Source: Armatimonadota bacterium
GTDB lineage: Bacteria > Armatimonadota > SYMT01
Length of the DNA: 64,000 nucleotides
Assembly: GCA_041690135.1 (NCBI GenBank)
Contig: JAWLHY010000002.1
Location: 96,001 to 160,000 of the forward strand
Direction: 5' to 3'
The translations under genes and the position numbers were made by a program. Of the stretch, positions 21,268 to 58,709 are shown piece after piece. The notes under the pieces were generated by a model. That model ran no database searches. It was not told the origin of the DNA and was given only the letters and a program-made list of their open reading frames with translations. Position 1 is the stretch's first letter. Every line of letters begins with the position of its first letter.

Positions 21268-22872
21268 ATGCCCGAAAAGCAAGCGGGACAGAGCAAGCAT
21301 GGTGTGATGCGGCAGCGGCGCTGGCGCGGTACGATGGTGAGTCTACTGGGTGCGCTGGTAGCGGTTCCCGCGGCCGCGCAAGCGCCGAATGCGCCTCCTC
21401 CCCCGACGGCACCCACGACTCCAGCCCGCCCGCCGGAGGGGGCTCCGCCGGCCGCGCCAGGGCTCCCGGCGCCGGCTGGAACCCCGACCGTGCTTACGTT
21501 GGATCAAGCCGTCCGCGCGGCCCTGGCGCAGAACCCGTCTCTGGATGAGGCGCAGGCGGCGGTCCGGCGGGCGGAAGGAATCGTCGCCGAAGCCCGGGCG
21601 ATTCAACGCCCCCGCCTGGATGGGAATGCCCAGTTCACGCTTCAGGGGCCTATTCCGAGTTTCGTCTTCACCCAGCCGCCGGATCAGCCGGGGGGACAGC
21701 CGCGCCGGCAGGAGATCTCCTTCGGCCGGTCCTTCACCAAGACTTTCAACCTCTCCGCGACGTACGACGTGGACCCGTTCGGCCGCAACCGCGACACGAT
21801 CCGGGCCGCCCAGCGGAACCGGGAAGCCGTGGAAGGCGGCCTGGCGACGACGCAGAATGAACTGGTCTTTGCCACCCAGAACCTGTACCTCGCCACGCTC
21901 CGGTCGCAGGAGTTGATCCGCGTCGCCCAGGAGTCGCTCGAGTCGGCCGCGGAACAGCTCCGCGTGTCCGAGGCGGGGTTCCGGGCCGGTACCGCCGCGG
22001 AGTTCGACGTGATCCGGGGACGGGTGCAGGTCGCGAACGTACGGCAGACGCTGGTGACCGCGGGGGCCAGTTACCGCCGCGCCCTGGCGGCACTGGCGGA
22101 GATCCTTAGTCTGGAGCCGAGCGAACGCCTGGAACTCGTGCCGGTGGCTCTGCCTCCGGAACCGCCGGCCGCGCCCGGGCTGGGTGCCCAACTGGCACCT
22201 CCCGCCCCGGCTCCACCCGCGGCCGAGGCGTCGGCCGTGCAGCCGGACAGCGTCCTGGCGCCGGCCCAGCCCTTGCCGGACACCCTGGCCGAGGCCCTGG
22301 CCGAAGCCCTGGAGCGCCGCCCGGAAGTCTACAGCGCCATTCAACTCCAACGCGCCGCGGAGGCCCGGTTAGCATTCCAGCGTAAGGGCAACCGGCCGAA
22401 CGTTACGCTTTCCGGCGGCGTGCTCTACGCTCCGGACCAGGCGGGCCTCGCCTTCGAGACGACCACCTGGAGCATCGTCGGCAACATCGCCGTGCCGATC
22501 TGGGACGCGGGGCTCACGCGCGCCCGCACCCGGCAGGCCCGCGCCGATGTCGCCGCCGCCGCCGCGGACGTGGAGAGCGCCCGCGACGCCGTGACGGAGG
22601 AAGTCAAGCGCGCCCTCCTCGACCTGGAGGACGCCGCCGAGCGCCGTCGCTCCGCCGCCGCGAATACTGTGCAGGCTCGCGAGGCCCTCCGCATCGCCCA
22701 GGTGCGGTACAACGCCGGCCTGGCGCCCGTGGTGGAGGTGATCGACGCGGAAGCCGCCCTCACCCAGGCCCGGACCAACGAGGTCAATGCCGCCTACGAT
22801 TACCTGGCCGCCCTGGCCTTCCTAAACCGCAGCCTGGGACGGTATACGCCGGTAGTGGAAGCGGGGCGGTAG
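21268..22872 (+). CDS. TolC family outer-membrane efflux protein
   Basis: LTLDQAVRAALAQNP, ALERRPE and RYNAGL...EVIDAE; no adjacent adaptor or pump gene. Confidence 0.9.
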   Translation: MPEKQAGQSKHGVMRQRRWRGTMVSLLGALVAVPAAAQAPNAPPPPTAPTTPARPPEGAPPAAPGLPAPAGTPTVLTLDQAVRAALAQNPSLDEAQAAVRRAEGIVAEARAIQRPRLDGNAQFTLQGPIPSFVFTQPPDQPGGQPRRQEISFGRSFTKTFNLSATYDVDPFGRNRDTIRAAQRNREAVEGGLATTQNELVFATQNLYLATLRSQELIRVAQESLESAAEQLRVSEAGFRAGTAAEFDVIRGRVQVANVRQTLVTAGASYRRALAALAEILSLEPSERLELVPVALPPEPPAAPGLGAQLAPPAPAPPAAEASAVQPDSVLAPAQPLPDTLAEALAEALERRPEVYSAIQLQRAAEARLAFQRKGNRPNVTLSGGVLYAPDQAGLAFETTTWSIVGNIAVPIWDAGLTRARTRQARADVAAAAADVESARDAVTEEVKRALLDLEDAAERRRSAAANTVQAREALRIAQVRYNAGLAPVVEVIDAEAALTQARTNEVNAAYDYLAALAFLNRSLGRYTPVVEAGR

Positions 22873-22880
22873 GCCTCTCA

Positions 22881-23158
22881 GGAGGGCAGGTTGTGGGGTG
22901 GTCAGGCGTTCGGCCTCCCGGTGGGGATAAACACCTGGGCCACCCTACGGGCAGTGAATGTCCGGGTGTTCCGGGACTGGTCCAGATCGTCATTGCGAGG
23001 CGCGATAGACCCGCACCAACTTCCCTGAATTGGATGAGTCTTGGGCCGAAGCACTCAGCTCCTTGAATCAGAACCTGTAAGCGACGTGGCAAACCCCCTG
23101 GTCAGGGCAGTCGCAATTACAGCGATGGGCAGTCCTCTGGTTAGGGCACCTGCCTTCT
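22881..23158 (+). ncRNA. Candidate structured RNA / 3' UTR element (~280 nt)
   Basis: 11-bp closing helix 22881-22891/23148-23158; at least six internal helices with + strand G-U pairs. Confidence 0.45.
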
Positions 23159-23306
23159 CGGACCTTTATCCGCACCCTGGTCCTAATTCACGCGTCCCCT
23201 GGTCTGGGAGCCTGTAAGCGACTTACACCGCCTTGGGCCTCTCCAGTGCTCAACGTTTATTCCGCTACAGAGGGACCCAGCGCCGGAAAGCCTGAACTGG
23301 GGAAAG

Positions 23307-23378
23307 CCCGAACACCCGACCACCCGACCACCTGACCACCCGACCACCTGACCACCTGAACGCCCGAGCACCCGAACA
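23307..23378. repeat. Octamer tandem repeat (CCYGAMCA) x9
   Basis: Nine consecutive imperfect 8-nt units. Confidence 0.9.
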
Positions 23379-23433
23379 CCCGCCCCACCACCAAAAGCAG
23401 GTCTCCCGATCGGCGCTCCCGAACCGTGTCGAT

Positions 23434-24945
23434 ATGGAAACGGCTTCCGACTCCCCTTTCGACCTGATCGTCCGCGGCGAGGTCCTCGATCCTTCGCAGG
23501 GCCTCCGCGGCCGGTACGACCTGGGCATCCGCGACGGGCGGGTCGCCGCGGTGGCGCCCAGCCTGGAAGGGCACCCCATGCGGGAGTGGCTGGATGCGGG
23601 CGACGCCCTCGTCGGTCCCGGCTTCATCGATATTCATGCGCACGTCTATGCCGGGGTCACCTCCTGGGGGGTGTGGCCCGACCCGCCCTGCCTGCGCTCT
23701 GGCGTAACGACCGTAGTTGACGCCGGCAGCCCCGGCTGGACCATGCTCCAGGGTTTCCGCTGGCTCATCCACGAGCGCTCCCGGGTGCGCGCCCTCTGCT
23801 TCCTCCACATCTCCGGCATCGGCCTGGTGAACGCCTGGGTGGACGAGTGCCGCGACATCAGCCATCTTGACCCCCTCACCGTCGGGGAGCATGCCGCGGA
23901 GAACGACGACCTGGTGGTCGGCATCAAGGTCCGCCAGGGCCTGGAGCAGGTCGGCGAGCACGGCGTCGAACCCCTGAAACTGGCGATCGAAGCCGCCCGC
24001 CGCGCGGACTCGCATCGGGAGTGTCTCGCGCCAAGCCGGTGCGAAGGGGGAACGAAGCTCTCGCAAAGCCGCAAAGGCGCAAAGGGAAACGGTGTTCAGG
24101 TGTTCGGGTGTTCCGGTGTTCCGGCGGGAAGGCAGCCACTCGCAAACGCGGACACCTCATCCTCAAAGTTACGGCGAAACAAACAGCCAGAGACGACGCT
24201 GTTGCACACCAACCCGGCTACTGACAGCGGGGGTTTCCCTTACGCAATACGCAATACGCATTACGAAACTCCCGTAATGTGCCACATCGCCCCCGGCATT
24301 CCCCTGGCACAGGTGCTGGAACTCCTGCGGCCGGGGGATATCGTGACCCACTGCTTCCAGGGTCGAGGGGCGGAGTTGGAGAACCTGACGGACTCCCGCG
24401 GTCGCCTGCTGCCGGAGGTGCTGGACGCCCGGCAGCGCGGGGTGGTGATGGACGTGGGGCACGGCGGCGGCAGCTTCCGGTGGGAGGTGGCGGAACGGGC
24501 GCTGGAGCAGAACTTCCTGCCGGACGTGATCAGCACCGATCTCCACGCCTACAACATGCATGGGCCCCTATTTGATATGGCCGCCACCCTGACCAAGTTC
24601 CTGTACCTCGGTATGCCGCTGGAGCAGGTGGTCGCCTGCGCCACCGTGGCGCCCGCCCGAAGTATCGGCCGTCCGGACCTGGGCACTCTCGCCGTCGGCA
24701 GCCCCGCCGACCTCACCGTTTTTCGGATCGCCAACGAGCCGGTCGAGATGTGGGACGCCCACTTCCAGCGCCGCACCTGGGACCGGCGCCTGAAGGTGGA
24801 AGCCACCATTCGCGCCGGTGTGGTCTACCGTCCGGAAGAGGTGGAGCCGGAAACGGAAGAGGAGATCACCCGGCGCTGCCGCCGGCGGGGCCCCGAAGCC
24901 CTGAAGCACGCCTGGAAAGCGCAACTGGGACGGGAGGCGCGCTGA
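23434..24945 (+). CDS. Amidohydrolase (dihydroorotase-like/deacetylase family) with ~87 aa in-frame insertion
   Basis: PGFIDIHAH, GVTTVVDAGS, GIKVR, GDIVTHCF, DVGHGGGSF and ISTDLH motifs. Confidence 0.9.
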   Translation: METASDSPFDLIVRGEVLDPSQGLRGRYDLGIRDGRVAAVAPSLEGHPMREWLDAGDALVGPGFIDIHAHVYAGVTSWGVWPDPPCLRSGVTTVVDAGSPGWTMLQGFRWLIHERSRVRALCFLHISGIGLVNAWVDECRDISHLDPLTVGEHAAENDDLVVGIKVRQGLEQVGEHGVEPLKLAIEAARRADSHRECLAPSRCEGGTKLSQSRKGAKGNGVQVFGCSGVPAGRQPLANADTSSSKLRRNKQPETTLLHTNPATDSGGFPYAIRNTHYETPVMCHIAPGIPLAQVLELLRPGDIVTHCFQGRGAELENLTDSRGRLLPEVLDARQRGVVMDVGHGGGSFRWEVAERALEQNFLPDVISTDLHAYNMHGPLFDMAATLTKFLYLGMPLEQVVACATVAPARSIGRPDLGTLAVGSPADLTVFRIANEPVEMWDAHFQRRTWDRRLKVEATIRAGVVYRPEEVEPETEEEITRRCRRRGPEALKHAWKAQLGREAR

Positions 24946-24949
24946 GATG

Positions 24950-25858
24950 CTACTCGACAGCGCTTCGCTCCCGGAGCAGTTCCGCCACCCGCCGCTTGGC
25001 GTTCCGCACCGCGAGCTGTAAAGGGGTGCGGCCCGCGTGGTCCCTCGCGTGGGGATCGGCGCCGGCGTCGAGCAGCAGGGCTACCACCCGCCGGCTGTCG
25101 TTTCTCTCGGCCGCCCGGTGTAGCGGCGTTCGGCCGGCCTCGTCCTGGGCATGTAACTCCGCTTTGTGCTGGAGCAGCCACGCGCCTCCCCGGGCATCGC
25201 CGTGGTGAGCGAACGCGTGCAGCAGGGTGCGCCCGTCGTTTCCATTCACGTCGGCCCCCCGGTGGACCAGGATCTCGGCGATGTCGTAGTGCCCGTTGCC
25301 GTGCCGCTGGTAATGGCCGAGCGCAAACCAGAGCGCCTGCTGGAAATCCGCGCAGGCCGTCGCCCCGGGGTCCAGGAGCAGGTGGGCGATCGCGGTGTTT
25401 CCCCCATGCCAGGCGGCCATCGCGAGCGGCGACATCCGCCAGGGCGCTTCCGGGTTCCGTGTGTCGGCGGCGCAGACGTCGGCCCCGAAGGCGATCAGCA
25501 ACTCGGCCGTTGCCAGCAGGTCCGCCGCCGTCCCCAGAGCATTCCGGCCCAGGGCCGACGCGGCGCAGTGGTGGAGCGGCGTCATGCCATGGGCGTCTGC
25601 GGTCTGCGCGAGGTGGGTGTGGGTCTCGAGCAGCGCTCGAACCAGTTCCGTGCGACCTAGGGCGGCCGCGGAGAAGAGGTCGAGCCGGGCTCCCGCCTCG
25701 AGCAGCGCGCGCACGACTGCCTCGGCGCCCGCTTCCGCCGCGAGACAGAGCTCCGAGCCGGCGAGGGCCGTCTGGGCGTCCTTCAGCCGCAACGTTCTAT
25801 GGTCCGCCGATCGGCTACCGGGGCGCTCATCTCTGCTAGCAGGAGGCTCACTCGGCAT
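24950..25858 (-). CDS. Ankyrin repeat protein
   Basis: Multiple G.TPLH.AA and GAD.N/GADP units. Confidence 0.88.
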   Translation of the reverse strand: MPSEPPASRDERPGSRSADHRTLRLKDAQTALAGSELCLAAEAGAEAVVRALLEAGARLDLFSAAALGRTELVRALLETHTHLAQTADAHGMTPLHHCAASALGRNALGTAADLLATAELLIAFGADVCAADTRNPEAPWRMSPLAMAAWHGGNTAIAHLLLDPGATACADFQQALWFALGHYQRHGNGHYDIAEILVHRGADVNGNDGRTLLHAFAHHGDARGGAWLLQHKAELHAQDEAGRTPLHRAAERNDSRRVVALLLDAGADPHARDHAGRTPLQLAVRNAKRRVAELLRERSAVE

Positions 25859-35520: not shown

Positions 35521-36972
35521 TCAGGCAGACTGCAAGATCTCCTTGACGATGCGCGCGGGGCGGCCATCGGTAATGCGATGGTCCCGGCCGTTGGAGTGGT
35601 AGATCAGCTTCTCGTGGTCGATGCCGAAGAGGTGAAGCAGGGTGGCCTGATAGTCGTTGGGCGTCACCACATTCTCCACGGCCTTGTGGCCGACTTCGTC
35701 CGTGGCGCCGAAGGTCATCCCGGGCTTGATGCCGCCGCCGGCCAGCCAGATGGAGAAACCCTGGCCGTTGTGGTCGCGACCGGAGGAAGCGTTCAGGTCG
35801 CCCTCGCACACCGGCAAGCGCCCGATCTCGCCGCCCCAGTGGACGATCGTCGTATCGAGCAGGCCCCGCTGCTTCAGGTCCTTCACCAGGGCCGCGGCGG
35901 GCTGGTCCGTGCGACGGCAGATGGCGGGTAGGCCCTTGCGAATGTCGGTGTGGTTGTCCCACGGCTGACCGCCGAGGAAGAGCTGGACGAACCGGACCCC
36001 TCGTTCCACCAGCCGGCGCGCGATCAGGCAGCGCGTGCCGTACTCCTTCGTGGGCTCCTGGTCGAGGCCGTACATTTTGCGGATGTACTCCGGCTCCTGG
36101 GAGACGTCCAGCGCTTCCTTCGCCGCGATCTGCATCCGGGCGGCGAGCTCGTAGCTGGAGATGCGGGCCTCCAGGTCGTCCTCTCCGGGATGCCGCTCCA
36201 GGTGGCGGCGGTTCAGCGCCTCCAGGAAGGCCAGGTTGTCCTCCTGGACCGCACCGCGCAGGTGGGCGGGCGGGTCCAGGTTCAGAATACGGGGCTCCTG
36301 GGGGCGGAGCACCGTGCCCTGGTAGAGCGGCGGCATGAACCCACTGGCCCAGTTGTGGGTGCCGTCCACCGGGTGACCTCCGGGGTCGGAGAGCACCATG
36401 TAGGCGGGGAGATCGCGCGAGGTGCTGCCCAGCCCGTAGACGAGCCAACTCCCCAGCGTGGGGCGGCCGGTAACCCCCGCGATGCCCCCGTGGAAGTAGC
36501 GGATGGAAACCTCGTGACCGTTGTGCCCGGTGTGCATCGAGCGGATCACACAGAGGTCGTCCACGATGCCGGCGGTGTGCGGCAGCAACTCGGAGACGTC
36601 CGTGCCGCACTGCCCGTGCTTCGCGAACTTCCAGGGGGTGCCGAACAGCTTCTTACTTGCCCGGTTCACGAAGCTGAAGTGCACGTCTCCGCCGTAGTCC
36701 TTCCCGTGGCTGGCGGTGAGCTCCGGCTTCGGATCGAGCAGGTCTACGTGCGAGGGTCCCCCGTGCATGAAGAGGGAGATCATCGCGTTGGCCCGGGGTG
36801 CAAACTGCGGCGCCCGCGCATTCAGATTGAGCGGCAGGTTTTCCGCCGGCTTGGGCGGGGCTGCCAGGAGACCCTCTTCCTGGAGGAGGTGGGCCAGGGC
36901 AAAGGTGCCGATGCCGAAGGCGGACCGCGAGAGCAGCCAGCGCCGGGTGGGAAGCGTGGGTTCAGTCGACAT
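35521..36972 (-). CDS. DUF1501 domain protein
   Basis: Tat-like TRRWLL, FMHGGPSHVDLLDPKP, ARRLVERGVRFVQ, WDNH, GRDHN. Confidence 0.93.
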   Translation of the reverse strand: MSTEPTLPTRRWLLSRSAFGIGTFALAHLLQEEGLLAAPPKPAENLPLNLNARAPQFAPRANAMISLFMHGGPSHVDLLDPKPELTASHGKDYGGDVHFSFVNRASKKLFGTPWKFAKHGQCGTDVSELLPHTAGIVDDLCVIRSMHTGHNGHEVSIRYFHGGIAGVTGRPTLGSWLVYGLGSTSRDLPAYMVLSDPGGHPVDGTHNWASGFMPPLYQGTVLRPQEPRILNLDPPAHLRGAVQEDNLAFLEALNRRHLERHPGEDDLEARISSYELAARMQIAAKEALDVSQEPEYIRKMYGLDQEPTKEYGTRCLIARRLVERGVRFVQLFLGGQPWDNHTDIRKGLPAICRRTDQPAAALVKDLKQRGLLDTTIVHWGGEIGRLPVCEGDLNASSGRDHNGQGFSIWLAGGGIKPGMTFGATDEVGHKAVENVVTPNDYQATLLHLFGIDHEKLIYHSNGRDHRITDGRPARIVKEILQSA

Positions 36973-39898
36973 AGAGAAACTCGTTGGAGCTGAGAAGCTG
37001 TTGACAGAGATTCGTCAGGGCCGCCGGTTCGGCCTTCTCAGCGCCGACGGCACCTCGCAGCAGATCGTGCTGCTTGCGGACAAACTGGAGCGCGGCCGCC
37101 GACTCTTCCGCCGTGACCGGCCGGTTGTAGGCGATCTCCCAGGCTAGTGCGACCTGCTTCGCCAGGTCGCCGGGGGCCTCTTTCCGCAGGCGCTCGGCGA
37201 AGTGCCCCGCCTGTTTCAGCACGAAGTCGCTGTTCATCAACGTGAGGGCCTGCGGCGCCGAGTTCGTGGTGATCCGGCGCTCGCAGTTGACCGTCATCAC
37301 GGGAGCGTCGAAGGAGACCAGGAACGAGACCGGCATGCTCCGTCGCACCTGGAGGTAGAGGCTGCGCCGCGGCGAGTCATCCTTCGCGGAGACCTGTCCG
37401 ACGGTGTCTTCCACCAGCGGCACCGGCGGCCCGAACTGCGTGCGATCCAGCCGGCCGGCGACGGCCAGCATCCGGTCGCGCAGGGCCTCCGCATCCAACC
37501 GCCGCACCGGGTACCGGCTGTAGAGCGACCCATCGGAGTCCACGGCCCGCTTCCGGGCATCCGCAACGGAAGCCTGGCGGTAGACGGTGGAGGTCATGAT
37601 GAGACGGTGGAGAGCCTTAAGGGACCAGCCCAGGCCCTCGGCGGGGCCAGCGGTTGGGGGCTGGGGGCCGCCGGACCTGAAGGATGAAGGATGAAGGATG
37701 AAGGATGAACCCTGGGAGCCAGAAGTCGCTGCGGTCGACGGGGAGCCCGTTTCCCCGGCCCCTGGCCCCTGGCCCCTGGCCCCAGTTGCGAACACAGATG
37801 CGAGATAGTCCAGCAACTCCGGATGGGTAGGCAGTGTGCCGAGCTTGCCGAACTCGCCGGGGGTGTCGACGATGCCGCGGCCGAAGTGGTTGAGCCACAC
37901 GCGGTTGACGAGCACGCGGCTCAGAAGCGGGTGCCGGCCGGAGGTGAGGTGGCGCGCCCAGGCAAGGCGGCGGCCGGTGGTCGGCAGGCTGGGATCGTCC
38001 GCCGGGATGTCGACGCGCGCGCCTTCCGGGGCGGCGATTGTCAGGTCTCCCGGAGCGATTGCCTCCTTCGGCGCGCGGTAGTCGCCGCGGTAGAAGAGGC
38101 GGGTCACCGGCACCTGTCCCGGCTCCTCCGTGAGGATGCTGATAAAGTCTTCCAGCGGCCGCTGCGCGCGCTTGGCGGCGATGGCCGCCTGGTCTGCCTT
38201 CAATTCGTCCGCCGCCTTCTGGTTGTACTGGTAGAGCACGCCCGGGGTGATCAGTAGCTTGGGATTCGTGGCGATCAACTGCTTCTGCTCGGCGTTCCGT
38301 TTGTCGGCCGGGGTCTTGAGGGCTTCCCGCAGCTTTTCGCGGAGGGTCGGCTCGAACTTCTGCAGCTCTACCTCCAGCGCCTCGGCCACGTACCGGGCCT
38401 GCTTCTCGTTGAAGGCAGCCTGGAGCTTCTGCGCTTCGGCCTCCACCACGGCGGCCTTGGCCCGCTCTTCATCCGTGTAAAGGGAGTGGAGACGTTGGGC
38501 CGGTGTGCGCCACCGGGCCGGGTTGAGTGACGGCTCGAAGATGGCCCGCAGCCGGAAGTAGTCGGACTGCGGGATCGGGTCGTAGCGGTGGTCGTGGCAC
38601 TGGGCGCAGCCGACGGAGAGGCCCAGCAGGCTGGAGCTGACGATCTTGAGCGTATCGTTGACCACCTGGTTGGTGGCGGCGGGATCGTTTCCCGTGCCAT
38701 CCACGGCGTTCCGCAGGAAGCCGGTAGCCACCAGTTTCTCAATCTGGTCCGGCTTCAGGTTGGCCCAGGGGCGCGGCACCAGCTCGTCTCCCGCAAGTTG
38801 CTCGGTAAGGAACTGGTCGAACGGCTTATCCGCGTTCAGAGAGCGGATGACATAGTCCCGGTACTTGTAGGCGTAATTGCGGGGAGTATCGTTGCTGCCG
38901 TTGCCGTCGGAGTCGGCATAGCCCGCCACATCCAGCCAGTGCCGGCCCCAGCGCTCCCCGTAATGCGGGGAAGCCAGCAGCCGATCGATCATCCGCTCGT
39001 AAGCCTTTGAAGGTTCCGGTTCGGGACAGGCGGAGCCACAGATTTCACAGATTGCCGGGCTAGCCGGAGATGCTCCGGAACTCTTACTCCTACTCCTACT
39101 CCTACTTCCCTCCCCGGCCGCGGTCGCGGCGATCCGGAGGTGTGCTTCCTTCTCCGCCTCGCAATCCTTAAGATACGTCTCCACTTCTTCCGAAGACGGG
39201 GGAAGCCCGGTGAGATCGAAGGCGGCGCGGCGGACCAACGTGAGCGGGTCCGCGTCCGGCGCGAAGGAGAGGCCTTTCTCCCGCAGCTTCTGGAGCACGA
39301 AGGCGTCGATGGGGGTCCGCACCCGGTCCGCGGCCTTGAACTTCGGCGGCTCGGGGCGGCGAAGGGGCTGGAAGAACCAGTAGGCGCGCTCTTCCGGGGT
39401 AATGTCCATTCCCGGTGGTAGTTGTTCCGGCTCGACCCGGCGCGTGGGCGCCCCGGCGGCGATCCACTTCTCGATCACGGCGATCTGCTCGGCCGGGACC
39501 TTCTTCCCCACCGGCGGCATGTCGCCCGCTTTCACCCGCAGCAGCAGTACACTCTGTGCCGGTTGATGGGGGATGAGGCCGGGGCCGCTGTCGCCGCCCT
39601 TCGCGATGAACCGGCGCAGGCGCAGGTCGAGGTTGCCTTCCACCTTCTCGCCGCCGTGGCAGTCGATGCAGTACGCCTTCAGGATGGGCCGGACGTCGTG
39701 CTCGTAGCTGAGGGTGGGCACCGCGGCCTTGACCGTCTTCGCTTCCTTTGCAGTTGCCGGTTTCTTGACCGCGGGCTTTCGCACGGTGCTTTTCCGCGCC
39801 GCTGGCCGGCGGGCCGCGGTGGCCTGGCCGGCGGTGACCCCGCCGGCCAGGGTCAGGCCGCAGAGCGAAAGGGCTACAAGTTGGGGGCGGGGACGCAT
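36962..39898 (-). CDS. Planctomycete cytochrome c / DUF1549 / DUF1553 (PSD1) protein with two in-frame insertions
   Basis: CIDCH, YGERWGRHWLDVAGYADS, CAQCHDH, VNRVWLNHFGRGIV, QALTLMNS. Confidence 0.93.
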   Translation of the reverse strand: MRPRPQLVALSLCGLTLAGGVTAGQATAARRPAARKSTVRKPAVKKPATAKEAKTVKAAVPTLSYEHDVRPILKAYCIDCHGGEKVEGNLDLRLRRFIAKGGDSGPGLIPHQPAQSVLLLRVKAGDMPPVGKKVPAEQIAVIEKWIAAGAPTRRVEPEQLPPGMDITPEERAYWFFQPLRRPEPPKFKAADRVRTPIDAFVLQKLREKGLSFAPDADPLTLVRRAAFDLTGLPPSSEEVETYLKDCEAEKEAHLRIAATAAGEGSRSRSRSKSSGASPASPAICEICGSACPEPEPSKAYERMIDRLLASPHYGERWGRHWLDVAGYADSDGNGSNDTPRNYAYKYRDYVIRSLNADKPFDQFLTEQLAGDELVPRPWANLKPDQIEKLVATGFLRNAVDGTGNDPAATNQVVNDTLKIVSSSLLGLSVGCAQCHDHRYDPIPQSDYFRLRAIFEPSLNPARWRTPAQRLHSLYTDEERAKAAVVEAEAQKLQAAFNEKQARYVAEALEVELQKFEPTLREKLREALKTPADKRNAEQKQLIATNPKLLITPGVLYQYNQKAADELKADQAAIAAKRAQRPLEDFISILTEEPGQVPVTRLFYRGDYRAPKEAIAPGDLTIAAPEGARVDIPADDPSLPTTGRRLAWARHLTSGRHPLLSRVLVNRVWLNHFGRGIVDTPGEFGKLGTLPTHPELLDYLASVFATGARGQGPGAGETGSPSTAATSGSQGSSFILHPSSFRSGGPQPPTAGPAEGLGWSLKALHRLIMTSTVYRQASVADARKRAVDSDGSLYSRYPVRRLDAEALRDRMLAVAGRLDRTQFGPPVPLVEDTVGQVSAKDDSPRRSLYLQVRRSMPVSFLVSFDAPVMTVNCERRITTNSAPQALTLMNSDFVLKQAGHFAERLRKEAPGDLAKQVALAWEIAYNRPVTAEESAAALQFVRKQHDLLRGAVGAEKAEPAALTNLCQQLLSSNEFLYVD

Positions 39899-56987: not shown

Positions 56988-58709
56988 GTGCGGCTATCCG
57001 CAGTGATTCTCGGCGTGGCGTGTGCCCTGACAACAGTGGCGCACCCTGCTTTTTCGGCGCCGCCGGCAACGGAGGCCCCCATCTTGCCTCGGTTGCCCCC
57101 ACCGGTAGAGGTGCGCACGGCCGGGCGGGTCTACCCGGTTTTCGCACACGCGCACACGCATCACGCTGGTTGGACCGACACCACGGCCTACGTCCATCAG
57201 CCTCAGGACATAAGCCTGCGCTGGCACATTGACCCGGGGGGGAGCGCCGTTCTCAAGGTGCGAGATGCCTGGGATCCGGTCGCCCCCTGGCGCGACCTGC
57301 GAAAGTGGGAGCGTTCCGATCTCGAACGGGGGGAAACGCGGCTCCGCATCGAACGGCCGAGTCTCCTCTGGCTGCGGGTGCGCGCCGCCCGCTGGCCCCG
57401 GAGCGGCGTTGCCAGTCTGCGGGCCGACTACGAGCGCCGGACCCTCGCGGTGCTTCGGGGAACTCCGGGGAAGATCCGGAAGCCGGTCATTGTGGCGGAG
57501 GGGTACGACCCTTTCAACGAACAGGACTGGAACGACCCGGCCTGGCAGGACGACGTCACCTTTGCCCGCCTTGTGAACGAAGGACGGCGACAGCACGATC
57601 TGGACCCATGGATCCTGGACTGGGGGGATGCCGCCGCACCTCTCCAGCAGCAAGCGGAAGACTTCGCCGATCTGGCGCGGCAGATCCGGACCTGGGCGGG
57701 CGGGCAGCGGCCCACGGTGGCGGTGGGAATCAGCATGGGCGCCGTGTCGCTGCGGTACGCCCTCGCCGCCGCGGCCGAAAGCAAGACGGACCTTGGGGTG
57801 CGCAAGTACATCAGCATCAACGGCCCCCACCGCGGCGCCTGGGTGAACCCGGAGCTGTACCGGTTTCTGCTGAAACGGGGCTCGGAAGGCAGTGGGCAGA
57901 AGGCAGTGGGCAGAAGGCAGTCGGCAGAAGGCAGTCGGCAGTTGGCAGAGGCCAAAGGACAGAGGGCAGTGGGCAATGGGTTGGATGCACCGGCTGAGGA
58001 CCCGGACTCTCCTAATCGTAATCCTAGTCCTAATCGGCCGCAGGCGCCGCCCAACCCCCTCCAACGTGCGCTCGGCAGTCCAGCCGCACAACAACTCATC
58101 ATCGGTGCGCCGTTGCACGCGGCGTTTTACACGAGCCTGCGCGCGCAGGGAGAGAACGGGTACGCTCCGGCCATTCCCCGGGCCGCGTTCAGCACCGGAT
58201 CGCTGGTGAAAGAAGGCACCGACCTGGCGGAACTGGTGAAGGGCAAGGCCGCGGTGATTCACCGGGTGCAGGTGCGCCCGCTCTGGCTGCCCCTTTGGAT
58301 CACGGTCCGCAAGACCCGCCGCGATTTCCGCTACGGTGCTTTCCCCGGAGAATTGCTGCCGGAGAGCATGCGCACGCCGGTCAAGGGCCACGTGCGCTTC
58401 CTCTCGATCTTTCGGTTCGACTTCCGCACGGATTGGGAGAAGATCCCGACCTTCATTCCCACGCACAGTGCGCTCGACTTCCCCGAGGAACTGGAGGGCG
58501 GACCCCGCCGGTTCCGCTACGAACACTGGCGGCAGTCCGCCTTTCCGCAAATCTACGTGAGCCAGGACCGGAACCTGCCGCACGACGCTACCCGCGTTAA
58601 CTGGATCGACCCCCGTACCGGCAAGCCAGCCCCTCGGGACGCAGACGCCATCCTGCACGAAATCGCAGTCGCTTACGGCCCGGCAGGTCGAAAGGCCGCC
58701 CGTGAATGA
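56988..58709 (+). CDS. Secreted alpha/beta hydrolase with in-frame repeat insertion
   Basis: KPVIVAEGYDP, VGISMG, SINGPHRGA, FIPTHSALD; AGGAGG RBS. Confidence 0.8.
   Translation: MRLSAVILGVACALTTVAHPAFSAPPATEAPILPRLPPPVEVRTAGRVYPVFAHAHTHHAGWTDTTAYVHQPQDISLRWHIDPGGSAVLKVRDAWDPVAPWRDLRKWERSDLERGETRLRIERPSLLWLRVRAARWPRSGVASLRADYERRTLAVLRGTPGKIRKPVIVAEGYDPFNEQDWNDPAWQDDVTFARLVNEGRRQHDLDPWILDWGDAAAPLQQQAEDFADLARQIRTWAGGQRPTVAVGISMGAVSLRYALAAAAESKTDLGVRKYISINGPHRGAWVNPELYRFLLKRGSEGSGQKAVGRRQSAEGSRQLAEAKGQRAVGNGLDAPAEDPDSPNRNPSPNRPQAPPNPLQRALGSPAAQQLIIGAPLHAAFYTSLRAQGENGYAPAIPRAAFSTGSLVKEGTDLAELVKGKAAVIHRVQVRPLWLPLWITVRKTRRDFRYGAFPGELLPESMRTPVKGHVRFLSIFRFDFRTDWEKIPTFIPTHSALDFPEELEGGPRRFRYEHWRQSAFPQIYVSQDRNLPHDATRVNWIDPRTGKPAPRDADAILHEIAVAYGPAGRKAARE

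What the first reader, a model, noticed from the sequence alone, without database searches (positions are those of the whole stretch)
24007..24274. ~87-codon in-frame insertion in an amidohydrolase, closed by an RNA helix and built from three repeat types
Seen: the segment between LAIEAARRA and TPVMCHI, normally a short turn in this family (recalled), holds about 260 nt with no stop codon. It contains CGCAAAG x3 (24062-24084), GGTGTTCN x4 (24091-24122) and TACGCAA x3-4 (24241-24266). Its ends pair (CGGGAGT 24016-22 / ACTCCCG 24268-74), with further nested helices inside. Known analogy: Rickettsia palindromic elements in ORFs. Inference: an intervening element that is either tolerated as a disordered loop or removed/bypassed at the RNA level.
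Basis: partly seen in the sequence, partly recalled or inferred. Interest (0 to 1): 0.75.

Follow-up and report, generated by a model that had tools for sequence, protein, structure and literature searches.

The report
Repeat-built loop insert in an amidohydrolase
An 86-residue stretch built from this bacterium's own short tandem DNA repeats sits in frame in a normally tiny turn of a conserved metal-dependent hydrolase, and it looks like a tolerated, translated passenger rather than something cut out of the RNA.

Summary
The gene at 23434..24945 (+) is a PRK09237-type amidohydrolase/deacetylase, and it carries 86 extra codons (about 24013-24270) where 44 of 67 close homologs and PDB 2ogj have a 2-3 residue turn. 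Four orthologs from the same family lack the insert.

The insert is low in GC and has non-coding codon usage. It is predicted to be disordered and lies between helix alpha4 and strand beta5, on the non-catalytic face of the barrel. Three of its parts belong to repeat families dispersed through this 9.1-Mb genome; the 116-nt middle is unique.

- **RNA helix not supported.** The fold z-score is -1.19. Three of the seven closing pairs are broken, without compensation, in a sister lineage.
- **Translated passenger favoured.** That sister lineage, from an independent soil assembly, has the same insert ends. Its interior is replaced (167 nt by 221 nt) yet still in frame, while the enzyme halves stay about 91% identical.
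- **Variable loop.** 23 of 67 homologs carry 5-104 extra residues in this loop.
- **Genome-wide pattern.** The genome carries in-frame 7/8-nt repeat mosaics in at least 37 ORFs, including ValRS, MnmG and QueA.

How the insert was copied in remains unknown.

The parts
23434..24945 (+). Host gene: PRK09237-type amidohydrolase/deacetylase family metallohydrolase, 503 aa with the insert.
   Evidence: ORF list. NCBIfam PRK09237 E 5.1e-114, 380.8 bits against a cut-off of 371. Pfam Amidohydro_1 and Amidohydro_3. PDB relatives 2ogj, 8wzy, 2ics and 8je0. The presumed metal ligands H68, H70, K165, H284, H306 and D369 are invariant in 80 sequences; the ligand roles themselves are recalled knowledge of the superfamily.
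24013..24270 (+). The insert: 86 codons (258 nt), in frame and stop-free. The boundary is ambiguous by one codon (24010-24267 is equally possible).
   Evidence: Ortholog alignments. Loop length is 26 in 44 of 67 homologs and 112 here. GC is 0.59 against 0.70 and 0.69 in the gene halves. Codon log-likelihood is -0.21 per codon against +0.40 and +0.43. GRAVY is -0.88. pLDDT is below 50 for residues 205-266.
24024..24061 (+). Leader of the CGCAAAG module (TCTCGCGCCAAGC ... GGGAACGAAGCTCT).
   Evidence: 82-85% identical to several loci elsewhere in the genome, such as C1:1594624-1594686 and C12:111395-111455. The same leader precedes 15 CGCAAAG arrays.
24062..24085 (+). Octamer array CGCAAAGN x3.
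   Evidence: TRF. There are 13-15 such arrays in the genome, depending on the pattern used. In the contexts printed, several sit within about 25 nt after a stop codon. Only 2 of 15 lie in long coding-like ORFs.
24090..24124 (+). Octamer array GGTGTTCN x4.4.
   Evidence: TRF. There are 56 arrays in the genome, of which 3 lie in long coding-like ORFs. The pattern gives 152 matches in G000 and 0 in the 40 other genomes searched.
24125..24240 (+). Middle segment with no second copy in the genome. By eye, its last ~50 nt weakly resemble the conserved leader (...CTTCTG...GGGGTTCS..) that precedes other TACGCAA arrays.
   Evidence: Sensitive blastn finds only itself at E <= 1. Leader comparison is; the resemblance is an inference.
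24241..24267 (+). Heptamer array TACGCAA x3.6 with its usual tail TTACGAAAC, read as YAIRNTHYE.
   Evidence: TRF. There are 33 arrays in the genome, 14 of them in long coding-like ORFs and all 14 in the sense orientation. The tail is shared with C11:12247.
24016..24022 (+). Left arm of the 7-nt terminal inverted repeat (CGGGAGT). Its partner is ACTCCCG at 24268-24274, and that partner is largely native gene sequence (codons T279-P280-V281).
   Evidence: Chance rate is 2.8-5%. The arms are not conserved in the sister lineage.
23290..23382 (-). Array of the same GGTGKTCN octamer family (9.5 units at 23307-23382), in the opposite orientation, 50-145 nt upstream of the gene's ATG. It is an inverted partner of the array inside the insert.
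   Evidence: TRF. Inverted-repeat pairs I3-I8 are 72-86% complementary over 22-37 nt, 718-774 nt apart.

Best explanation
The segment is non-coding-type DNA made of this genome's own dispersed short-tandem-repeat modules: a CGCAAAG octamer module with its leader, a GGTGTTC octamer array, a unique piece, and a TACGCAA heptamer module. It was copied into the codons of the alpha4-beta5 turn of a PRK09237-type amidohydrolase after this lineage split from its nearest insert-free relative.

Because the added length is a multiple of three and the frame is stop-free, it is translated as a hydrophilic, disordered 86-residue loop. That loop sits on the N-terminal (non-catalytic) face of the (beta/alpha)8 barrel, and the enzyme goes on working. 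The peptide itself is not under selection; only continuity of the reading frame is. The interior therefore turns over quickly by gain, loss and replacement of repeat modules.

Shown: the presence, position, composition, lineage specificity and predicted disorder of the insert; the conserved flanks; and the in-frame turnover in the sister lineage.

Inferred: that it is translated, that the enzyme stays active, and the copying mechanism (template switching or recombination between repeat arrays, or mobilisation in trans). No terminal inverted repeats, target duplication or full-length donor were found.
For: 1. **Lineage-specific insertion in a short turn.**
- Four same-family orthologs lack it.
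- The canonical spacing holds in 44 of 67 homologs.
- PDB 2ogj has 3 residues there.
- On a tree built without the loop columns, the window protein and P0002 are sisters (SH-aLRT 99), and the next branch, P0003, has no insert (98).

2. **Non-coding origin.**
- GC is 0.59 against 0.69-0.70.
- Codon log-likelihood is -0.21 against +0.40 and +0.43.
- The modules match dispersed families, of which GGTGKTCN (3 of 56) and CGCAAAGN (2 of 15) arrays lie mostly outside ORFs.
- The TACGCAW and GGTGKTCN patterns are near-absent from the 40 other genomes searched. TACGCAW x3 is found in G000 plus 2 others; GGTGKTCN x3 is found in G000 only.

3. **Tolerable position.**
- The AlphaFold2 model has mean pLDDT 85.6, with helix 179-198 and strand 281-285 flanking a segment (205-266) below pLDDT 50.
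- The catalytic-type residues are invariant.

4. **The gene has been kept since the insertion.**
- A 5003-nt contig in soil run X2 aligns to 23453-24064 and 24232-24926, with 63 and 90 differences. By its length and the +18 codons it is inferred to be P0002's contig.
- Of the 29 differences listed in the gene upstream of 24007, 22 are at third codon positions (my count on the truncated table).
- The protein halves are 176 of 192 and 201 of 224 residues identical, against 37 of 116 alignment columns in the insert.

5. **The frame is kept through turnover.**
- In that contig, 167 nt of the interior are replaced by 221 other nt, a difference of 54 nt or 18 codons, and the product P0002 is one 528-aa ORF.

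6. **The same behaviour occurs genome-wide.**
- 37 ORFs with coding-like flanks hold 7/8-nt arrays in frame.
- Pfam names hosts such as ValRS, MnmG, QueA, PutA and a HemN-like protein.
- The QueA insert is missing in 6 of 6 family genomes, and the ValRS insert is missing in 3 relatives.
Against: - There is no RNA or protein data. Translation of the insert and activity of the enzyme are both inferred.
- The full-length homologs with inserts were found by a protein search of called ORFs 276-881 aa long. Broken versions could not appear, so '23 of 23 in frame' is biased by how they were found.
- An open frame of this length is not rare in shuffles (766 of 5000).
- The 116-nt middle has no donor anywhere in the genome, and no insertion signature was found. 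An ACTC direct repeat lies at 24008 and 24268, but the 260-nt spacing does not fit the 258 nt added. The copying step is therefore unexplained.
- AlphaFold's low confidence is not proof of disorder.
- The third-position count rests on the 40 best-supported rows of a table with 159 more rows not shown.
- The tree used the 'quick' method with SH-aLRT support only.
Confidence: 0.7

Rival explanations
1. Adaptive or regulatory element. In one version, the 7- and 8-nt arrays act as a slippage-prone ON/OFF switch (a contingency locus). In another, the GGTGTTC array pairs with its inverted partner upstream of the start codon to control the mRNA or to promote DNA inversion.
For: The unit lengths are not multiples of three, so a slip of one unit would shift the frame. 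An inverted array of the same family lies at 23290-23382, 72-86% complementary over 22-37 nt. A second array within 800 nt is uncommon for a family of 56 arrays in 9.1 Mb (the rarity is my inference).
Against: There are only 3-4.4 units per array, which is few for frequent slippage. The same kinds of array sit in essential genes (ValRS, MnmG, QueA), where switching off would be harmful. In the sister lineage the array-bearing interior is replaced by other DNA, so these arrays are not conserved. It is unknown whether the upstream array is part of the transcript. No reads from this organism were available to test copy-number variation.
Confidence: 0.12
2. Young pseudogene. The insertion wrecked the fold, and the ORF is still open only by luck.
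For: Insertions in alpha-beta turns on the bottom face of TIM barrels can destabilise them (general knowledge). An open frame is not rare by chance (766 of 5000 shuffles). Two paralogs elsewhere in the genome, at C10 and C5, could cover the function.
Against: The insertion predates the split of two lineages. Both keep a full ORF, about 91% identical halves and mostly third-position differences. All ligand-type residues are intact. The replaced interior in the sister lineage is again in frame. 23 of 67 homologs tolerate extra residues at this exact spot.
Confidence: 0.08
3. The segment is removed or skipped at the RNA level (intron-like excision or translational bypass), with its ends brought together by the terminal helix.
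For: The 7-nt ends pair in the MFE and centroid folds. A terminal repeat of 7 nt or more is somewhat uncommon (2.8-5%).
Against: - The fold z-score is -1.19, and 22 of 200 shuffles fold as well.
- No Rfam family matches, including group I and II introns.
- The right arm is native coding sequence.
- In the sister lineage, positions 24019, 24022 and 24270 are changed, breaking 3 of the 7 pairs with no compensation.
- There is no stop codon or take-off/landing arrangement to bypass.
- If the segment were removed, nothing would keep its length a multiple of three and stop-free in two lineages.
Confidence: 0.03
4. Assembly artefact: repeat-rich reads wrongly joined inside the gene.
For: The segment is made of dispersed repeats, which are a common cause of misjoins.
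Against: An independent assembly from another study's soil run (X2) holds a related gene with an insert at the same place and with homologous ends. The insert is exactly in frame. The window lies in a 1.285-Mb contig.
Confidence: 0.02
5. A genuine extra protein domain conserved in a subfamily.
For: Several homologs start their extra residues alike (A-[DE]-[DE]-[HY]-[AG]), which hints at a short ancestral helix extension.
Against: A search with residues 190-282 alone finds only the protein itself (1 hit among 20 candidates). Pfam finds nothing there. The sister lineage's insert is 37 of 116 columns identical, against about 91% in the halves. Lengths range from 5 to 104 residues with unrelated sequences. 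Predicted confidence is low.
Confidence: 0.01

Closest known systems
Rickettsia palindromic elements (RPEs) inserted in frame into protein-coding genes
   Same: Repeat DNA from a genome-wide family lies inside conserved genes, keeps the reading frame, adds a peptide segment at a structurally permissive place, and is lineage-specific.
   Different: An RPE is one 100-150-nt palindromic unit with many full-length copies. This insert has no second full-length copy and no significant fold. It is a mosaic of three tandem-repeat modules plus unique DNA. The organism is not Rickettsia; names attached to homologs suggest Armatimonadota.
Dispersed heptameric tandem repeats: cyanobacterial STRR sequences and the GGGAATC / GGGGAYT repeats of Xanthomonas and Nostoc (Rehm et al. 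2015, PMC4692102; abstract and passages seen)
   Same: Many short arrays of 7-nt units, often about four units, are spread over a large high-GC or cyanobacterial genome. Here period 7 is the commonest TRF period (370 of 2330 rows).
   Different: Those repeats are reported as over-represented between genes and under-represented in coding regions. Here 69 of 445 period-7/14 arrays lie in frame in ORFs with coding-like flanks. Several unit families are combined into mosaics with conserved leaders. The units differ and most are not G-quadruplex types.
BIMEs (bacterial interspersed mosaic elements built from REP units) and REPINs (PMC3116915; two passages seen; BIME details recalled)
   Same: Short modules combine in variable order into mosaics. 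Several CGCAAAG modules sit just after stop codons (contexts printed), as REPs do.
   Different: REP and REPIN units are palindromic and tied to RAYT transposases. The modules here are tandem arrays without palindromic symmetry, and no associated enzyme was looked for or found.
Simple-sequence-repeat contingency loci (phase variation by slippage in ORFs), for example in Haemophilus and Neisseria (abstract of PMC2651432 seen; the rest recalled)
   Same: Tandem units whose length is not a multiple of three lie inside an ORF, so a one-unit slip would shift the frame.
   Different: There are only 3-4.4 units, several different arrays in one insert, and housekeeping hosts elsewhere in the genome. 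No copy-number variation could be tested.
Inteins, group I/II introns and translational bypass elements such as T4 gene 60 (recalled)
   Same: An intervening segment lies in a conserved gene and is absent from orthologs.
   Different: There is no Hint-type domain or splice-junction residues (sequence). No intron family matches. There is no stop codon or matched take-off/landing codons.

Membership tests
PRK09237 / EF_0837-like amidohydrolase-deacetylase metallohydrolases (host gene) | Whole-protein score above NCBIfam's curated cut-off. | tested here: met
   380.8 bits against a cut-off of 371, E 5.1e-114, in two stretches split at the insert.
PRK09237 / EF_0837-like amidohydrolase-deacetylase metallohydrolases (host gene) | Amidohydrolase-superfamily ligand set: HxH, Lys, His, His, Asp (the pattern is recalled). 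| tested here: met
   H68, H70, K165, H284, H306 and D369 are invariant in 80 aligned sequences and present here.
Rickettsia-type palindromic element (RPE-like selfish DNA in ORFs) | Many full-length copies of one unit in the genome. | tested here: not met
   Only pieces of up to 63 nt of the 281-nt query match elsewhere, and the only full-length hit is the insert itself. The middle 116 nt are unique.
Rickettsia-type palindromic element (RPE-like selfish DNA in ORFs) | Palindromic sequence able to form a stable hairpin. | tested here: not met
   z = -1.19, and 22 of 200 shuffles fold at least as well.
Rickettsia-type palindromic element (RPE-like selfish DNA in ORFs) | In-frame insertion in a conserved gene, absent from orthologs. 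| tested here: met
MITE (miniature inverted-repeat transposable element) | Terminal inverted repeats plus a target-site duplication. | tested here: not met
   There is only a 7-nt inverted repeat, and one arm of it is native gene sequence; its chance rate is 2.8-5%. The ACTC direct repeat is 260 nt apart, which does not fit the 258 nt added.
Self-splicing intron or other curated RNA family | Match to an Rfam covariance model. | tested here: not met
   In 22800-25200, at E <= 1, there is only a chance-level CRISPR-DR20 hit, and it lies outside the insert.
Intein | Hint-domain similarity and Cys/Ser/Thr at both splice junctions, with a preceding His-Asn (recalled). | tested here: not met
   Pfam finds only amidohydrolase families. 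The insert begins S/H-R-E and ends Y-E-T before P. 86 residues is below known mini-intein size (recalled).
Dispersed heptamer/octamer tandem-repeat class (STRR-like) | Arrays of the same 7/8-nt unit at many unlinked loci. | tested here: met
   56, 13-15 and 33 arrays for the three unit types. Periods 7 and 8 are enriched genome-wide.
SSR contingency locus | Unit-number variation within a population that switches the frame. | not testable with these tools
   No run holding this organism's reads was listed. Only contigs of relatives were available.

The most novel reading that the evidence does not exclude
The insert is one visible case of an undescribed class of ORF-compatible selfish DNA. Small mosaics of heptamer or octamer arrays with conserved leaders (some with a hairpin head) would multiply within this lineage. 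They would settle both between genes and, in frame, in permissive loops and linkers of conserved and even essential proteins. Hot spots such as the alpha4-beta5 turn of this amidohydrolase would be hit or remodelled repeatedly in related species. Such elements would be a steady source of new disordered protein segments in bacteria.
Probability: 0.4. Interest if true: 0.75.

Novelty: new variant of a known kind. Interest (0 to 1): 0.6.

Why it matters
Repeat DNA read through in frame inside bacterial genes is known mainly from Rickettsia. Dispersed heptamer repeats have been described as essentially intergenic.

Here one large genome shows tandem-repeat mosaics translated inside a conserved enzyme. 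The same kind of segment appears in ValRS, MnmG, QueA, PutA and dozens of other ORFs.

The amidohydrolase case adds a comparison between two lineages. The flanks are under purifying selection while the insert's interior is swapped yet stays in frame.

If the process is general in this lineage, three things follow:
- It gives a tractable system for asking how bacterial proteins acquire disordered loops.
- It would help show what moves such repeats.
- It bears on how annotation pipelines should treat them.

For the enzyme itself the finding is most likely neutral.

Tried and rejected
**Searches that gave nothing or too little**
- The first scan of genome contigs with the single protein found no relative.
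- The second scan, with alignment A2, gave 80 loci at 52% identity or less. Match lengths were normal apart from L197, whose 2260-nt match was not examined. There were no close kin and no name for the window's family.
- The metagenome-contig scan kept 80 loci, of which only three were close (L051-L053, 73-76%). None of the 77 whose match spans the loop has a large extra segment there. L095 and L116 end before the loop, and L096 changes frame at it. The DNA of the insert-bearing homologs (P0002, P0004, P0006, P0012 and others) could therefore not be fetched. That their inserts are heptamer-coded is inferred from 7-residue periodic peptides identical to ones whose DNA is known in this genome.
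- A protein search with the insert region alone returned only the query.
- Elhai et al. 2008 on very small mobile repeats in cyanobacteria is not held. What I say of it is recalled.
- Four literature searches found no description of in-frame heptamer mosaics in housekeeping genes. This is not proof that none exists.

**Sequencing runs**
- No RNA holder was listed.
- Only two soil runs held small shares of the words (0.12 and 0.07), and all the data laid were contigs. Nothing can be said about expression, about copy-number variation, or about parts without cover.

**Signals and explanations looked for and dropped**
- The promoter and terminator scan of 22800-25100 found 0 and 0.
- A 4-nt direct repeat ACTC at both ends was considered as a target duplication. 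It was dropped because 260 nt does not fit the 258 nt added.
- A tRNA T-loop-like GGTTCGA motif before many TACGCAA arrays was noticed. It was not pursued, as no closing stem follows.
- A diversity-generating retroelement target was considered. It was dropped because the segment has no template-like second copy.
Full report
**What is there**

The ORF 23434..24945 on the + strand encodes 503 residues. It scores above NCBIfam's cut-off for PRK09237, an amidohydrolase/deacetylase family metallohydrolase: 380.8 bits against 371, E 5.1e-114. The match comes in two stretches, the second joining protein residues 276-474 to profile positions 183-379. Pfam sees Amidohydro_1 and Amidohydro_3. The nearest solved chain, 2ogj, aligns to residues 33-188 and 278-443 through its own residues 42-198 and 202-365, so the solved protein has three residues where this one has about ninety.

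A protein search of 41 genomes (G000 and 40 relatives) found the gene in 6, G000 included. In the four same-family orthologs (G001-G004) the two halves abut, with 0-27 nt between the two matched stretches. The alignment places 86 extra codons between ...AARRAD(S) and (T)PVMCHI. That is 24013-24270, give or take one codon.

The gene frame is open throughout.

**Is it more than chance?**

The open frame alone is not: 766 of 5000 dinucleotide shuffles are also open.

The proposed RNA closure is not either.
- The fold of 24007-24280 has z = -1.19, and 22 of 200 shuffles fold as well.
- A terminal inverted repeat of 7 nt or more in the 30-nt ends turns up in 139 of 5000 shuffles and in 249 of 5000 random genomic segments.
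- The right arm, ACTCCCG, is mostly native coding sequence: codons Thr-Pro-Val before MCHI.
- Rfam finds no family in 22800-25200 apart from a chance-level CRISPR repeat hit outside the insert.

What is far from chance is the make-up.
- The insert has GC 0.59 against 0.70 and 0.69 in the two gene halves.
- Its codon log-likelihood is -0.21 per codon against +0.40 and +0.43.
- Its three arrays belong to families spread over the 9.10-Mb, 65% GC genome: 56 GGTGKTCN arrays, 13-15 CGCAAAGN arrays (depending on the pattern) and 33 TACGCAW arrays.
- The CGCAAAG array comes with the same leader as elsewhere (...GGGAACGAATCTCT). In the contexts printed, several of those copies lie within about 25 nt after a stop codon.
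- The TACGCAA array carries the same tail as a copy on contig C11.
- Only pieces of up to 63 nt match elsewhere, and the 116-nt middle (24125-24240) has no other copy even with sensitive settings.

**Where it sits in the protein**

An AlphaFold2 model from an 80-sequence alignment has mean pLDDT 85.6. It shows helix 179-198 and strand 281-285 on either side, and pLDDT below 50 for residues 205-266. The strand that follows carries H284.

From general knowledge of the amidohydrolase superfamily (recalled), the metal ligands sit at the C-terminal ends of the strands. A turn between a helix and the start of the next strand therefore lies on the opposite face. H68, H70, K165, H284, H306 and D369 are invariant in the 80 sequences and present here. 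The insert peptide is hydrophilic, with GRAVY -0.88 against -0.17 for the rest.

**History**

Among the 67 best database homologs, 44 have the canonical spacing and 23 carry 5-104 extra residues at this exact turn.

Several of these extras show 7-residue periods, such as SSFILHPSSF in P0012 and P0016, and SAIRNPQSAI in P0006. SSFILHPSSF is exactly what a (TCCTTCA)n array encodes in another gene of this window, 36962..39898 on the - strand. I therefore infer heptamer arrays there too, though their DNA could not be fetched.

On a tree built without the loop columns:
- The window protein and P0002 are sisters (SH-aLRT 99), 91% identical over 408 columns.
- The next branch, P0003, has no insert (SH-aLRT 98).
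- The insert state needs 11 changes in all, of which well-supported branches force at least 3 (quick method).

The turn is therefore a recurrent site of gain, loss or remodelling. The present insert arose after the split from P0003's lineage.

**The sister lineage**

A soil-metagenome run (X2, contigs only) holds a 5003-nt contig. By its length and the +18-codon difference I take it to be the contig that encodes P0002.
- It aligns to 23453-24064 (63 differences) and to 24232-24926 (90 differences).
- The 167 nt between are replaced by 221 other nt.
- The difference, 54 nt, is 18 codons, and P0002 is a single 528-residue ORF.
- Of the 29 listed differences in the gene upstream of 24007, 22 fall on third codon positions. 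In the first 18 nt of the insert, 4 of 9 do. This is my count's table, which shows 40 rows and omits 159.
- The protein halves are 176 of 192 and 201 of 224 residues identical, against 37 of 116 alignment columns in the insert.
- In the same contig, positions 24019, 24022 and 24270 are changed. That breaks three of the seven pairs of the proposed closing helix with no compensating change.

Four readings follow from these results:
- The insert is real and not a misassembly.
- The enzyme has been under purifying selection since the insertion.
- The insert's sequence is free to change, but its frame is kept.
- The helix is not conserved.

**Context in the genome**

Tandem Repeats Finder on the whole genome gives 2330 rows. 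Period 7 (370 rows) and period 8 (273) exceed periods 6 (129) and 9 (163).

With a crude coding test, 69 of 445 period-7/14 arrays and 19 of 331 period-8/16 arrays lie in frame in long ORFs with coding-like flanks. The test itself missed the amidohydrolase, so these counts are rough.

Thirty-seven host ORFs hold arrays of at least 2.8 units. The arrays are read as stereotyped peptides such as QLTIDNSQLSIVNS, YAIRNTQ, SSFILHP, GRRQKAE and LGTRNSE.

I sent 20 of these 37 ORFs to Pfam. It names, among others, a HemN-like radical SAM enzyme, PutA, QueA, MnmG, ValRS, a MutS-domain protein, an alpha-L-fucosidase and several DUF1549/DUF1553 proteins. Two of the 20 had no family.

- The QueA segment is missing in 6 of 6 family genomes. 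It is 69% identical over 54 residues to a segment in an unrelated WGR/DUF4132 gene.
- The ValRS segment is missing in 3 relatives and unclear in G006.
- A composite unit recurs in the same frame in several unrelated ORFs. It is most complete in two of them, with partial or variant forms in others. It consists of a small hairpin head, a spacer, (AGAAGGC)n and (CTCGGAA)n. This argues for copying of ready-made mosaics rather than local slippage.

For the three families in the insert, the share in long coding-like ORFs is 3 of 56, 2 of 15 and 14 of 33. Random 30-mers give 305 of 1000.

The families are close to private to this genome among the 41 searched. GGTGKTCN x3 gives 152 matches in G000 and none elsewhere. 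TACGCAW x3 gives 41 matches in G000, 2 in G005 and 2 in G036. The other genomes are mostly fragmented assemblies, in which repeats are often lost.

**Mechanism**

The best-supported account is a three-step one.
- Copying in: repeat-mosaic DNA of non-coding type was copied into the turn's codons. This step is inferred.
- Read-through: the result happened to be, or was selected to be, in frame and stop-free, so the ribosome reads through it into a disordered loop on the non-catalytic face.
- Turnover: the interior then changes by module gain, loss and replacement, with only frame continuity under selection.

I could not show how the DNA got there. There are no convincing terminal inverted repeats, no target duplication that fits, and no donor for the middle. 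One local clue exists: the insert's GGTGTTC array is an inverted copy (72-86% over 22-37 nt) of a 9.5-unit array just upstream of the gene's own start codon. That would fit template switching between nearby arrays, but it could also reflect the general clustering of these arrays.

**Comparison with known systems**

In behaviour it resembles Rickettsia palindromic elements (recalled). It fails their defining features of full-length copies and palindromy.

Its building blocks resemble the dispersed heptameric repeats of cyanobacteria and Xanthomonas. Those are reported as depleted in coding regions (PMC4692102; abstract and passages).

It is not an intron, an intein or a bypass element.

Four full-text searches found no account of in-frame heptamer mosaics in housekeeping genes. 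One likely relevant paper, Elhai et al. 2008, could not be read.

**Verdict**

The RNA-helix and RNA-removal reading is not supported. The tolerated-loop reading is well supported but not proven, since there is no expression or protein data.

I class it as a new variant of a known kind: selfish or repeat DNA read in frame. Its interest comes mainly from the genome-wide pattern it points to.

Noticed in passing
window 36962-39898 (- strand), arrays at 37678-37709 and 37753-37783: A 978-aa ORF with the sequence hallmarks of the DUF1549/DUF1553 (PSCyt/PSD1) paralogs; this ORF itself was not scanned. It carries two heptamer arrays in frame, read as ARGQGPGAG and SSFILHPSSF, about 240-270 codons before its end. 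Many paralogs elsewhere in the genome carry other heptamer arrays at the same relative place.
   Followed up: partly
window 56988-58709 (+ strand), array at 57885-57980: A 573-aa ORF with no Pfam family holds a 14-nt array (6.9 units) in frame, followed by a 6-nt array at 58010-58035.
   Followed up: partly
window 22864-23382 (intergenic, upstream of the amidohydrolase): The 560-nt spacer after the TolC-like gene is filled with GGTGKTCN-type units in both orientations. They include a 9.5-unit array at 23307-23382 that is an inverted partner of the array inside the insert.
   Followed up: partly
G000 loci L131-L150 (for example L143 ValRS, L141 MnmG, L137 QueA, L135 PutA, L131 HemN-like): In-frame 7/8-nt repeat mosaics lie inside or between conserved domains of housekeeping enzymes. 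The QueA and ValRS segments are missing from family relatives.
   Followed up: partly
G000 C13:116455-116560, C14:100638-100870, C3:784850-784925, C7:94542-94600: A composite unit recurs in the same reading frame in unrelated genes, complete in some and partial in others. It consists of a hairpin-like head (5-bp stem, 7-nt loop), a CGGCTGACCGACC spacer, (AGAAGGC)n and (CTCGGAA)n. The head has about 8 plausible copies among 11 matches in the genome.
   Followed up: partly
G000, 33 TACGCAW arrays (listing): Most arrays are preceded by a conserved leader ending in GGGGTTCS, 3-6 nt before the first unit. All 14 arrays that lie in long ORFs are in the sense orientation, although the reverse complement is also stop-free. 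Many hosts are paralogs, so the 14 are not independent.
   Followed up: no
G000 C11:12207-12524: One stop-free stretch around a small membrane-protein-like coding region holds two TACGCAA arrays and, further on, a CGCAAAG module. That module is read in the same frame as in the amidohydrolase insert (…LSQRRKDAKG… against …LSQSRKGAKG…).
   Followed up: no
locus L096 (metagenome contig), about 1298-1307: In a distant homolog (33-39% identity) the tblastn match changes frame by -1 exactly at the same alpha4-beta5 turn. This could be a sequencing error or a real frameshift.
   Followed up: no
window 24950-25858 (- strand): The gene immediately downstream, convergent with the amidohydrolase, encodes a 302-aa protein that looks like an ankyrin-repeat protein by eye. 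It was not scanned.
   Followed up: no
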